Source of the DNA: a virus
Virus record (IMG/VR): IMGVR_UViG_3300031884_000939
Span: 64,001 to 128,000 of that record
Length of the DNA: 64,000 nt
Reading direction: 5' to 3' (one strand)
This document shows, in pieces, positions 61,392-63,441 of the stretch. The stretch's first letter is position 1. Each line of letters starts with the position of its first letter. The position numbers and the translations under genes are program-made. The notes beneath the pieces are model-generated. The model made no database searches. It was not told where the DNA came from and saw nothing but the letters and a program-made list of their open reading frames with translations.

Positions 61392-61415
61392 AAAAGCCCC
61401 AATTAAGGGGCTTTT
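61392..61415. terminator. Intrinsic terminator
   Basis: AAAAGCCCC-AATTAA-GGGGCTTTT. Confidence 0.85.
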
Positions 61416-61431: not shown

Positions 61432-61683
61432 TTACTTAACAGCTTTAGTAAAAGACTTAACTGCGTCTTCAGCTTGTGTCTTAACGATAGCTGTGATTGA
61501 TTCGATTGCTGATAACTGAGCACGAACGAAATCACTAGCGTCAGAAGTAAAACTAACCAAAGTCTTACTGAGTTCAGCTGGTTGTACATAAGCCAAAATA
61601 GCTTGTGTGTTCTTTTCAGCTTGGTCAATGAACTTAGCTGGGTTCAATGCTTCTTTTAATGTATCAAAGTTAAATGTATTCAT
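61432..61683 (-). CDS. Phasin-like amphipathic helical protein
   Basis: 83 aa Ala/Lys/Gln-rich helical sequence with no Gly, Trp, Cys or His; strong RBS; PhaR-like boxes upstream. Confidence 0.55.
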   Translation of the reverse strand: MNTFNFDTLKEALNPAKFIDQAEKNTQAILAYVQPAELSKTLVSFTSDASDFVRAQLSAIESITAIVKTQAEDAVKSFTKAVK

Positions 61684-61757
61684 GGTAAATCTCCTTAAAA
61701 TTAAGCGAGGTTTTTGTTAGCCCGAACCATTCGGCACTAACCTTTCTCACAAGTATT

Positions 61758-61807
61758 TATATTGCGACGCAATATATAATATATATCTATTATATTGCGA
61801 CCGCACA
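61758..61807. promoter_or_regulatory. Two PhaR-like TGC-N3/4-GCA operators next to a late promoter
   Basis: Palindrome TATATTGC-GAC-GCAATATA (61758-61776) and TATATTGC-GACC-GCACA (61791-61807); minus-strand TAAATA at 61754-61759. Confidence 0.65.
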
Positions 61808-61832
61808 TTTTTTTCAAGCCTATTTGGCTACT

Positions 61833-62540
61833 TTAATTACGGAGTTTTGCCAATCCCAAACCGCGGAATAATTGGATATATGCCCACCCTAAATCAAACT
61901 CAAACCATTTACGGCTTAGTTTTGGGTTAGCTGGATCTGCGTGGTGGTTATTGTGTAATTCTTCGCCACCGATTATAATACCCCATGGTGAAAAATTAGT
62001 ACTAAAGTCCTGGGTTTGTTTATTGCGATAACCCCACCAATGTCCCAATCCATTTACTACTCCAGCCGCCCAGAATGGAATCCACAACATTTGAATGCCC
62101 CAAACTAAGAATCCCCAGCCCTGGAATAATATTACATTGATAACCAACATTATCATAATACCTAGCCGACTATGTGGAGTATAAACTATTTGTTCTATAG
62201 TATCTTCTGGCGTTCCTGATCCATAAGCCCGTACCATTGTTTTATCTTTACTAGCACGATTATAAAGCAATGCGCCCTTAAAGAACACAGTCCAAAAACC
62301 AAAGATGTGCGGGCTATGTGGATCACCTTCTGCGTCATCGAACCTGTGATGTTTGCGATGTATAGCTACCCATTGTTTAGTAACCATACCCGTTGTCAGC
62401 CATAGCCAAAAACGCATAAAATGTTCTAACACAGGATTGAATATTAATCCTTTGTGAGCTTGTCCACGATGTAAAAATACTGTAACGCAAACAATAGTGA
62501 TATGTGTTACTATTAAGGTATAGAGTAATATAAGCATCAA
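61833..62540 (-). CDS. Delta-9 fatty acid desaturase (DesA-like)
   Basis: HRGQAH, HRKHH, GDPHSP, NGLGH..GYRN, GGEELHNNHH. Confidence 0.92.
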   Translation of the reverse strand: MMLILLYTLIVTHITIVCVTVFLHRGQAHKGLIFNPVLEHFMRFWLWLTTGMVTKQWVAIHRKHHRFDDAEGDPHSPHIFGFWTVFFKGALLYNRASKDKTMVRAYGSGTPEDTIEQIVYTPHSRLGIMIMLVINVILFQGWGFLVWGIQMLWIPFWAAGVVNGLGHWWGYRNKQTQDFSTNFSPWGIIIGGEELHNNHHADPANPKLSRKWFEFDLGWAYIQLFRGLGLAKLRN

Positions 62541-62544
62541 GTAC

Positions 62545-63099
62545 TTAGCCCAAATCAGCGTAAGGCGCCCAAAGATTCTGTAAATTTAAAAAGAATATAT
62601 TCTTATTAGTAGTAACAGCTTCTTGAGCGTATGTAAGCATACTTGGTGGCGGTATATGCGTTACAACTTCAGCATCACCGTGATCCTCGTGTACTTCTAA
62701 ACCATGTTTATTAGCCAAGTGCTTCATAGCACTATTGCGGTTCAAACAATGTAGGTATAATGTATTAAATCCGCGATTGCGAATCCAAGTAATAGCTTCT
62801 TCCATAAGTTGATCTGCTATACCCCGATGTTGTTCTTCTTCGGCAACCATAATACCAAACTCCATATCCCGTTCAGATATTCTAGCCATATGGATAACCC
62901 CTACCCATTTGTTACCTTTTGTAGCTACTAGGAAGTAATGCTCGTCAGGATTAGCCAATATACGATCTATTAAATTGGCGATAAAGTCAGGACTAGTAGC
63001 TATACCAAAATAGGTAGCTAGAGTTTCTGGGGATTTCTCCCGCAACCAGTCTCCATATAAATGAAAATCCTGCATAGGTAAAAAGCGTGTGGCTAACAT
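62545..63099 (-). CDS. GNAT acetyltransferase
   Basis: EFGIMV..QHRGIA..LM, HCLNRNSAMKHLA.K.GL. Confidence 0.85.
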   Translation of the reverse strand: MLATRFLPMQDFHLYGDWLREKSPETLATYFGIATSPDFIANLIDRILANPDEHYFLVATKGNKWVGVIHMARISERDMEFGIMVAEEEQHRGIADQLMEEAITWIRNRGFNTLYLHCLNRNSAMKHLANKHGLEVHEDHGDAEVVTHIPPPSMLTYAQEAVTTNKNIFFLNLQNLWAPYADLG

Positions 63100-63100
63100 A

Positions 63101-63190
63101 TTAATAGTTGTGATATTGGGTACGAGCTTTAGCCGCTTCTAAACGAGCTTCTAAAAATGCTTGCCAAAGATTCTTTAATAGCTTCTTCAT
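63101..63190 (-). CDS. 29-aa small protein
   Basis: MKKLLKNLWQAFLEARLEAAKARTQYHNY; abuts neighbours on both sides. Confidence 0.55.
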   Translation of the reverse strand: MKKLLKNLWQAFLEARLEAAKARTQYHNY

Positions 63191-63191
63191 T

Positions 63192-63332
63192 TTATAAACC
63201 GCGATATTCAAAGTATTTGACCCAATACTCAACTTCAGCATGGGACTTTGGTTCTTTAGCATTGATAAATTGCTCCAAAGCAGTTGGTTGTTTTGCGAAG
63301 AACTGGGTAAGTTCCTTTAATAGTTTTGTCAT
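63192..63332 (-). CDS. DUF3563-like small protein (46 aa)
   Basis: MTKLLKELTQFFAKQPTALEQFINAKEPKSHAEVEYWVKYFEYRGL; AAGGAG RBS. Confidence 0.55.
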   Translation of the reverse strand: MTKLLKELTQFFAKQPTALEQFINAKEPKSHAEVEYWVKYFEYRGL

Positions 63333-63382
63333 TTTGTGACTCCTTTTTGATGTTCTCAGTGTTTCTACTGAGTACTTTTATT

Positions 63383-63401
63383 TATGCTGTGCCGCCGCAT
63401 A
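63383..63401. promoter_or_regulatory. Third PhaR-like operator
   Basis: TATGCTGTGCCGCCGCATA containing TGC-CGCC-GCA, upstream of the small-protein/GNAT/desaturase operon. Confidence 0.5.
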
Positions 63402-63441
63402 GAATATTAAAGTTTTATTACAATACCTTATAAGTATTGCT

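What the first reader, a model, noticed from the sequence alone, without database searches (positions are those of the whole stretch)
61432..63401. Phage-encoded mimic of the host PhaR (PHA carbon-storage) regulon
Seen: two transcription units, [46-aa, 29-aa, GNAT, desaturase] and [83-aa phasin-like]. Each is preceded by TGC-N3/4-GCA boxes (63390, 61791, and a palindrome with perfect 8-bp arms at 61758 overlapping the late TAAATA) and each has a leader hairpin (CTCAGT/ACTGAG; CCGAA/TTCGG). Known: PhaR represses phasin genes at TGC-rich boxes and is titrated away by PHA granules. From recollection, DUF3563-like peptides and this GNAT type occur near betaproteobacterial pha genes. Inference: the phage senses host granule load through host PhaR and deploys proteins to coat or mobilise PHA and redirect acyl-CoA.
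Basis: partly seen in the sequence, partly recalled or inferred. Interest (0 to 1): 0.85.

Follow-up and report, generated by a model that had tools for sequence, protein, structure and literature searches.

The report
Phage genes behind host PhaR operators
A family of giant lake phages puts the binding site of PhaR, the bacterial repressor that senses stored bioplastic (PHB) granules, on the promoters of a few small genes, so these genes are probably switched on only in hosts that are storing carbon; binding and the job of the products are still untested.

Summary
Observation confirmed; interpretation partly supported. A weight matrix built only from Burkholderiales phaP/phaR promoters ranks the 61758 palindrome first in the 158-kb phage record (23.2 bits, next 12.2). 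Such boxes are kept before the 83-aa gene in 51/57 and before the 46-aa unit in 17/25 related phage loci, against 2/141 other late promoters. They sit on sigma70 and late (TAAATA) promoter elements, as repressor sites do. The 46-aa/29-aa/GNAT unit also exists in Polynucleobacter chromosomes behind a similar box, and the 46-aa peptide is a distant DUF3563 relative; bacterial DUF3563 genes carry PhaR boxes (21/27). Corrections: the 83-aa protein is phasin-like in amphipathy, composition and fold class, but homology is not shown. Its leader is a ROSE-type heat-shock leader shared only with the phage's hsp20 and dnaK. The desaturase has its own late core and is probably outside the regulon. No phaZ, phaC or phaR was found in this fragment. 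Best reading: host PhaR gates these genes by PHB status (about 0.65); granule coating by the 83-aa protein about 0.5. I found no paper on this; this scan noted the same module earlier in other phage genomes.

The parts
61392..61415 (-). Intrinsic terminator after the 83-aa gene
   Evidence: 9-pair stem plus T tail
61432..61683 (-). 83-aa amphipathic helical-hairpin protein, phasin-like but not shown homologous to phasins; found only in phages of this family
   Evidence: 420 homologues; AF2 helices 6-13, 15-30, 36-82, pLDDT 81; hydrophobic moment 0.33 vs 0.34 for phasins; not found in 251 Burkholderiales genomes apart from one weak hit at E 0.004
61684..61741 (-). Two-hairpin ROSE-like 5' leader: hairpin I 61716-61741, UCGCU anti-SD motif 61704-61708, SD 61690-61696
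   Evidence: Rfam ROSE_3 34.7 bits, E 9e-5, below gathering score 43; covarying pairs in 53 leaders; same pattern only before phage hsp20 and dnaK
61754..61759 (-). Late-promoter core TAAATA of the 83-aa gene
   Evidence: TAAATA lies within 80 nt upstream of 51/237 ORFs vs 3.3% of random windows; TAA[AG]TA present in 56/56 homologous promoters
61758..61776 (.). PhaR-type operator 1 (TGC-N3-GCA with A/T-rich arms), abutting the late core
   Evidence: Top site in the 158-kb record with a host-only matrix, 23.2 bits; same core and right arm as a Polynucleobacter-genus phaP1 box (L232)
61789..61817 (-). Sigma70-type promoter TTGAAA-17-TATAAT
   Evidence: 11 of 12 consensus matches, best in the region; box followed by a -10-like hexamer in 49/56 homologous promoters
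61790..61811 (.). PhaR-type operator 2 (N4 variant) filling the spacer of the sigma70 promoter
   Evidence: 13.5 bits, top N4 site but within chance range alone; same variant at this place in many relatives
61833..62537 (-). DesA-type fatty acid desaturase lacking the C-terminal part of the bacterial model; probably an independent late gene
   Evidence: PF00487; NF049918 382 bits, model positions 13-240 of 385; bacterial homologues 54-61% identical, mostly Burkholderiales
62542..62547 (-). TAAGTA late-core variant 4 nt before the desaturase ATG, overlapping the GNAT stop codon
   Evidence: TAA[AG]TA in 35/35 phage loci, also where GNAT is absent
62545..63099 (-). Single-domain GNAT acetyltransferase, substrate unknown
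   Evidence: PF00583; 38% identical to the Polynucleobacter cassette GNAT; same clade 100/100
63101..63190 (-). 29-aa basic amphipathic peptide
   Evidence: 28-46-aa peptides at this position in relatives and 31-38-aa peptides in the Polynucleobacter cassette
63192..63332 (-). 46-aa peptide, distant relative of DUF3563
   Evidence: HHalign to DUF3563 proteins probability 55%, E 1e-4, reversed control score 8.5 vs 21.5; Atlas 0.87 with 180 shared features for a family member; below Pfam detection
63355..63372 (-). Leader hairpin of unit 1
   Evidence: arms vary together and the loop is inverted in some relatives
63379..63384 (-). Late-promoter core TAAATA of unit 1
   Evidence: sequence; conserved
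63382..63402 (.). Degenerate PhaR-type operator of unit 1, centred 8 nt upstream of the late core
   Evidence: 10.8 bits here; 17/25 relatives score 10 bits or more, centred 8-17 nt from TAAATA; same TGCTGT-N3-GCA variant as the Polynucleobacter cassette box

Best explanation
These phage genes are wired into the host's PhaR (PhbF) circuit. SHOWN in sequence: operator-like boxes lie in the spacer of a sigma70 promoter and against the phage late core of the 83-aa gene, and against the late core of the 46-aa/29-aa/GNAT unit; neither this fragment nor a complete relative encodes a PhaR. INFERRED: in a Burkholderiales host without growing PHB granules, free PhaR sits on the boxes and blocks both host and late polymerase; when the host is storing PHB, PhaR is held on the granules and the genes are transcribed. 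Phage DNA replication may add to the release by titrating PhaR. INFERRED: the 83-aa mRNA has a second gate, a ROSE-type leader that hides the ribosome site and opens with heat or folding stress, together with phage Hsp20 and DnaK. INFERRED, weaker (about 0.5): the 83-aa protein works like a minimal phasin, binding the hydrophobic granule surface with its amphipathic helices; the likeliest benefit is easier use of stored carbon for virion production (about 0.3). The DUF3563-like and 29-aa peptides are likely small surface-binding or regulatory members of the same regulon, and the GNAT an acetyl-CoA-consuming enzyme of unknown target. The desaturase is a neighbouring late gene.
For: Host-only matrix ranks 61758 first in 158 kb. 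Boxes of 10 bits or more: 51/57 before the 83-aa gene, 17/25 before unit 1, 2/141 at other TAAATA sites; kept in homologues only 26-36% identical (13-24 bits in 4 of 5 distinct loci), with turnover of position and spacer. Burkholderiales phaP and phaR promoters carry the same box next to -10; footprinted PhbF motif TG[N]TGC[N]3GCAA represses phaP1 (PMC3206438); granule sequestration of PhaR (PMC12542648, PMC11332829). Bacterial relatives of the cargo lie behind such boxes: DUF3563 genes 21/27 vs 2/297 control windows, GNAT homologues 7/18, Polynucleobacter peptide-peptide-GNAT cassette, next to phaZ in two genomes. Polynucleobacter has PhaR in 5/5 and phasins in 61/61 genomes. No PhaR in the complete 344-kb relative. 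83-aa protein: rank 2 of 92 small phage ORFs in both amphipathy and phasin-like composition; nearest named Atlas clusters are all PHA proteins but under 0.9; PhaP 5IP0 ranks 6 of 48,161 chains, Z 7.0, rmsd 2.8, 77 aligned. Leader; PMC3669281.
Against: No binding or expression data. The host is not identified; Burkholderiales is inferred from gene relatives only. Related phage loci are not independent, so the enrichment p-values are inflated. Two of the three boxes in this window are not above genome-wide chance alone, and the N4 spacer is rare among the host sites I collected. No sequence homology of the 83-aa family to phasins: HHalign 4-15%, and a phasin HMM scores reversed sequences as well as forward ones; the 5IP0 match is tied with unrelated helical hairpins. 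Host phaP1 leaders have no ROSE-like element (0/27). No depolymerase or synthase found in the fragment, and no depolymerase in the complete relative. One distant homologue lacks a good box.
Confidence: 0.62

Rival explanations
1. The operators are real PhaR sites but act mainly as a timer or decoy: replicating phage DNA outnumbers PhaR, which turns on these genes (and derepresses the host phaP/phaZ regulon) whatever the granule load.
For: Boxes abut late cores, which fire after replication; the 83-aa promoter has two boxes here; the phage has no phaZ of its own, so it would need the host enzymes.
Against: A decoy needs no promoter overlap, yet the boxes sit at fixed distances from -10 or TAAATA; only two or three sites per genome.
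Confidence: 0.15
2. PhaR control is real but the 83-aa protein is not a granule protein: it is a small holdase or membrane-binding stress protein co-expressed with phage Hsp20 and DnaK, and PHB status is only a proxy for host nutrient state.
For: ROSE-like leader shared only with hsp20 and dnaK; locus lies next to clpP and groES; no phasin homology.
Against: Phasin-like composition and amphipathy; the strongest PhaR boxes in hosts precede phasin genes; from general knowledge, phasins themselves have chaperone-like activity and small heat-shock proteins coat PHB granules, so the two readings overlap.
Confidence: 0.25
3. The palindromes bind a different protein, for example a phage-encoded repressor or late-transcription factor, and the likeness to PhaR boxes is convergent.
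For: TGC-N-GCA dyads are short; the N4 and TGC-N3-ACA variants are commoner in the phages than in host phaP promoters; about half of this phage genome is missing.
Against: Matrix built from host sites alone picks this site first; bacterial relatives of the cargo sit behind the same box; other late promoters lack it (2/141).
Confidence: 0.1
4. The boxes are relics that came with captured host genes and no longer matter.
For: Unit 1 has chromosomal counterparts in Polynucleobacter islands; the window's unit-1 box is degenerate.
Against: The 83-aa gene has no bacterial counterpart in the genomes searched yet has the best boxes; boxes persist while flanking DNA and the protein diverge to 26-36% identity; the Polynucleobacter GNATs nest among phage GNATs, though the direction of transfer is unresolved (AU p 0.18).
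Confidence: 0.05

Closest known systems
PhaR/PhbF-phaP circuit of Burkholderiales (Ralstonia eutropha PhaR, PMC11332829; Herbaspirillum seropedicae PhbF, PMC3206438) and AniA/PhaR of Sinorhizobium meliloti (PMC12542648)
   Same: Same operator motif with A/T-rich arms, same placement on sigma70 elements, often two boxes, in front of a small amphipathic helical protein.
   Different: Here the operators are on a phage that encodes no PhaR, they also cover a phage late promoter, and the downstream protein is not a detectable Phasin_2 member and has a heat-shock-type leader that host phaP1 genes lack.
Pho boxes on T4-like cyanophage pstS/phoA genes read by host PhoB (from memory, not checked here); LexA, Fur and DtxR sites on temperate phage genes (from memory)
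   Same: Phage genes placed under a host regulator that reports the state of the cell.
   Different: The signal would be a stored carbon polymer sensed by sequestration of a repressor, not phosphate, iron or DNA damage; I found no paper on PhaR sites in phages.
Phasins, Pfam Phasin_2 (PF09361), structure 5IP0
   Same: All-helical hairpin, similar hydrophobic moment and Ala/Lys/Glu/Gln-rich, Gly/Cys/Trp-poor composition; model overlays residues 32-108 of 5IP0.
   Different: Shorter (79-87 aa), no significant sequence or profile match, found only in phages.
Short ROSE elements of Pseudomonas ibpA (Rfam ROSE_3, RF02523; PMC3669281)
   Same: [quoted passage not shown]
   Different: Below the Rfam gathering score; precedes a non-Hsp20 gene; transcribed from sigma70/late promoters, not sigma32; 12/53 relatives use another anti-SD motif.
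DUF3563 (PF12086)
   Same: About 50 aa, helical, aligned LE-x-[FY]-[IL] and D-[VL]-E motifs, PhaR-type box upstream, sometimes followed by a related GNAT.
   Different: Below Pfam detection; closest relatives are unnamed 53-aa Polynucleobacter proteins.

Membership tests
PhaR regulon | TGC-N3-GCA operator with A/T-rich arms | tested here: met
   61758 site 23.2 bits with a host-only matrix, within the range of host sites; conserved in relatives
PhaR regulon | Operator overlaps or adjoins promoter elements | tested here: met
   Box in the 17-nt spacer of TTGAAA/TATAAT and box abutting TAAATA
PhaR regulon | The host encodes PhaR and makes PHB | tested here: inconclusive
   Host unknown; the genus with the closest cargo relatives (Polynucleobacter) has PhaR 5/5 and phasins 61/61
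PhaR regulon | PhaR binds the site and represses in a PHB-dependent way | not testable with these tools
   Needs EMSA and reporters
Phasin (Phasin_2, PF09361) | Pfam score above the curated cut-off (24.9 bits) | tested here: not met
   No hit for the window protein or 52 homologues; best 15.3 bits on one homologue
Phasin (Phasin_2, PF09361) | Profile-profile homology to phasins | tested here: inconclusive
   HHalign probability 15%, score 20.1 vs reversed 15.5 and shuffled maximum 13.8; phasin HMM scores forward and reversed sequences alike
Phasin (Phasin_2, PF09361) | Long amphipathic antiparallel helices | tested here: met
   AF2 model; hydrophobic moment 0.33 vs 0.34 +/- 0.05
Phasin (Phasin_2, PF09361) | Specific structural match to PhaP (5IP0) | tested here: inconclusive
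   Z 7.0, rmsd 2.8, 77 aligned, rank 6 of 48,161, tied with unrelated helical hairpins
Phasin (Phasin_2, PF09361) | Binds PHA granules | not testable with these tools
   Needs localisation or granule pull-down
DUF3563 (PF12086) | Pfam score above cut-off | tested here: not met
   No hit for 19 phage members or the Polynucleobacter 53-aa proteins tested
DUF3563 (PF12086) | Remote profile similarity | tested here: met
   HHalign 55%, E 1.2e-4, controls far lower; phage profile retrieves a DUF3563 protein; Atlas 0.87, 180 features
ROSE_3 thermometer (RF02523) | Rfam gathering score 43 bits | tested here: not met
   34.7 bits, E 9e-5
ROSE_3 thermometer (RF02523) | Two hairpins with U(U/C)GCU paired to the SD sequence | tested here: met
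   Fold and covariation; motif in 41/53 leaders
ROSE_3 thermometer (RF02523) | Temperature-dependent translation | not testable with these tools
   Needs reporter or toeprint at several temperatures
DesA-family desaturase (NF049918) | Three His boxes and model score | tested here: inconclusive
   His boxes present; 382 bits vs cut-off 400 because the C-terminal part is absent
Pat-type protein lysine acetyltransferase | Match to Pat models above cut-off | tested here: not met
   NF058543 only 22.5 bits vs 460; no characterised close structure

The most novel reading that the evidence does not exclude
A widespread family of roughly 340-kb freshwater phages reads its host's PHB reserve through host PhaR and its folding-stress state through a ROSE-like RNA leader, and uses this two-input gate to make a phage-specific mini-phasin that binds the granules and redirects stored carbon to virion production.
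Probability: 0.3. Interest if true: 0.85.

Novelty: new variant of a known kind. Interest (0 to 1): 0.62.

Why it matters
Phages are known to borrow host regulators for phosphate, iron or DNA damage, but I found no report of one reading carbon-storage granules. PHB-storing Burkholderiales such as Polynucleobacter are among the commonest lake bacteria, so a conserved phage link to PHB would tie viral output to host carbon reserves. The finding is directly testable with existing PhaR proteins and phaR/phaC/phaP mutants. It also gives leads on the bacterial side: DUF3563 and a Burkholderiales GNAT look like unrecognised PhaR-regulon members, and an 83-aa granule-binding protein would be a useful small tag for PHA work.

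Tried and rejected
Pfam, PHROGs and NCBIfam gave nothing for the 83-, 46- and 29-aa proteins. Foldseek against PDB and the Atlas shape search gave only generic helices; PDB sequence search with the 83-aa profile gave nothing significant. My hand alignment of the 83-aa family to the Phasin_2 helix-turn-helix core with a 7-residue insertion was not recovered by HHalign and is not counted. The idea that the 83-aa protein mimics the PhaR C-terminal domain got no support (HHalign 0.1%). Homo-tetramer prediction: no verdict. Sequencing runs: no RNA holder listed. No cultured phage relative found for four proteins. No phaZ, phaC, phaR or Phasin_2 match in this 45%-complete record; phaR, phaZ and Phasin_2 not found in a complete 344-kb relative (phaC not searched there). 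Further boxes: the other strict matches in two relatives lie inside coding regions. Direction of GNAT transfer unresolved. First run of the unit-1 box count mis-anchored some windows and was redone. Literature searches for DUF3563 and for phage PhaR or phasin found nothing relevant; the library lacks most subscription papers.
Full report
Setting. The window is part of a 158.5-kb linear virus record, about 45% complete. Relatives are freshwater metagenome phages; one complete relative is 344 kb with terminal repeats. No cultured phage matched four proteins from this region. TAAATA is enriched before ORFs (51/237 vs 3.3% of random windows), so it is a real promoter core, most likely late.

Observation. 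The bare TGC-N3/4-GCA pattern occurs 63 times in the record, so the claim needed a better test.

Are the boxes PhaR operators? I collected 31 sites from Burkholderiales phasin and phaR promoters and built a matrix with no phage input. It ranks the 61758 palindrome first in the record at 23.2 bits; the next site scores 12.2 and the best site in 20 Markov genomes scores 12.0-20.3. The other two boxes (13.5 and 10.8 bits) are within chance range on their own. Conservation settles that: in related phage loci, 51/57 promoters of the 83-aa gene and 17/25 promoters of the 46-aa unit hold a site of 10 bits or more, against 2/141 windows at other TAAATA sites. These loci are related, so the counts show conservation, not independent trials. 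Still, the box moves, changes spacer and is duplicated between lineages, and persists in 4 of 5 distinct loci whose 83-aa protein is only 26-36% identical. Placement fits a repressor: one box fills the spacer of TTGAAA-17-TATAAT, the other abuts the late core; in unit 1 the box centre lies 8-17 nt from TAAATA. The motif agrees with the footprinted PhbF site of Herbaspirillum (PMC3206438) and the A/T-armed AniA site (PMC12542648).

Do the cargo genes belong to the regulon? A profile of the 46-aa family matches 16 of 121 genomes of one genus (one or two weak hits are doubtful), named as Polynucleobacter. There a 53-aa peptide is followed by a 31-38-aa peptide and, in six loci, directly by a GNAT, behind a conserved TGCTGT-N3-GCA box. 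That GNAT is 38% identical to the phage one and in the same clade. A PHB depolymerase gene lies next to the cassette in two genomes, and a phasin and an Hsp20 gene lie within 7 kb in another locus. The 46-aa family aligns to DUF3563 proteins (probability 55%, controls far lower), and 21 of 27 DUF3563 genes have a box of 12 bits or more against 2 of 297 control windows. Seven of 18 more distant Burkholderiales GNAT homologues also have one. The Polynucleobacter GNATs nest among the phage ones, but the data do not reject phage monophyly (AU p 0.18), so I cannot say who gave the cassette to whom. The desaturase looks different: it has its own TAA[AG]TA core 4-6 nt before the ATG in 35/35 phage loci, and bacterial desA genes lack boxes (2/61). 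Read-through from unit 1 is possible because no terminator was seen before 61415.

Is the 83-aa protein a phasin? It has at least 420 homologues, those with context all in this phage locus, and no convincing one in 251 Burkholderiales genomes. It has no Pfam hit. Profile comparison with 79 diverse Phasin_2 domains gives 15% probability, and the phasin HMM scores reversed sequences equally well, so homology is not shown. What is shown is likeness: a helical hairpin with the hydrophobic moment and composition of phasins, ranking 2 of 92 small phage ORFs on both measures. The nearest named Atlas clusters are three PHA-related families, all under 0.9. PhaP 5IP0 ranks 6 of 48,161 chains, but tied with generic hairpins. 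The only Phasin_2 signal in one 152-kb relative falls on this gene, below cut-off. I put granule binding at about 0.5 and do not file it as a phasin.

A second input. The leader of the 83-aa gene matches Rfam ROSE_3 (E 9e-5, under the gathering score). Hairpin I shows paired changes across 53 leaders and 41 of 53 have the U(U/C)GCU motif facing the SD, the mark of short ROSE thermometers (PMC3669281). In the whole record this leader pattern occurs three times: before dnaK, hsp20 and the 83-aa gene. Host phaP1 leaders lack it (0/27). The protein is therefore likely co-regulated in translation with the phage chaperones, which supports either a phasin with chaperone-like action or a stress protein that only uses PHB status as a cue.

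Mechanism. Most likely, free host PhaR blocks these promoters, and PHB granules release them by holding PhaR (for the host circuit). Operators, their placement and conservation are shown; binding, release and all product functions are inferred. 'Redirecting acyl-CoA' has no support beyond the presence of a GNAT with no characterised close relative, and 'mobilising PHA' would have to rely on host enzymes.

Novelty. Host-regulator control of phage genes is a known kind (Pho, LexA, Fur boxes; from memory). Control by the PHB sensor was not found in the papers searched. Earlier notes of this scan describe the same module in other phage genomes; they are not independent evidence, and I reached the box, leader and Polynucleobacter results before reading the detailed ones. 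Verdict: real, conserved and testable; a new variant of a known kind; interest 0.62.

Noticed in passing
G000:C1:141666-144160 (locus L384), outside the window: Phage hsp20 and dnaK each carry the same ROSE-like two-hairpin leader as the 83-aa gene; a Polynucleobacter island hsp20 (L258) has a similar one.
   Followed up: partly
L191-L220 (Burkholderiales genomes): DUF3563 genes carry strong PhaR-type boxes (21/27), so this unnamed family looks like a core member of the bacterial PhaR regulon; no paper mentions DUF3563 in the library searched.
   Followed up: yes
L172-L190, L256-L263 (Polynucleobacter): The peptide-peptide-GNAT cassette lies mostly in low-GC (37-40%) stretches, sometimes twice per genome, near phaZ, phasin, hsp20 or lipid genes; may be phage-derived.
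   Followed up: partly
window:63442-63906:+: HNH endonuclease gene inserted upstream of unit 1, between it and the small divergent gene; not seen at this place in the eight viral relatives listed.
   Followed up: no
window:63922-64000:+ and homologues (L004, L016): A small Lys/Ala/Pro-rich gene diverges from unit 1 and shares its intergenic region; in two relatives the unit-1 box also falls within the upstream window of its TAAATA, so it may be co-regulated.
   Followed up: no
window:63355-63372 and L003, L047, L080: The loop of the unit-1 hairpin is inverted in some relatives (an exact reverse complement in L047), so the stem matters more than loop orientation.
   Followed up: no
window:59491-61312:-: Two secreted or lipoprotein-like genes (238 aa with a lipobox-like N-terminus, 367 aa with a signal peptide) follow the terminator in many relatives; no family hit.
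   Followed up: no
window:57738-58650:- and G000 elsewhere: Proteostasis genes cluster in this phage: clpP (Pfam-confirmed) and, by recognisable N-termini only, groES, clpX, clpA, clpS, dnaJ and a ribosomal protein S21-like gene.
   Followed up: no
L355/L356:1541-1906: In one distant lineage a DUF3579 gene replaces GNAT and desaturase between the peptides and the 83-aa homologue, and the operator is weak or lost.
   Followed up: no
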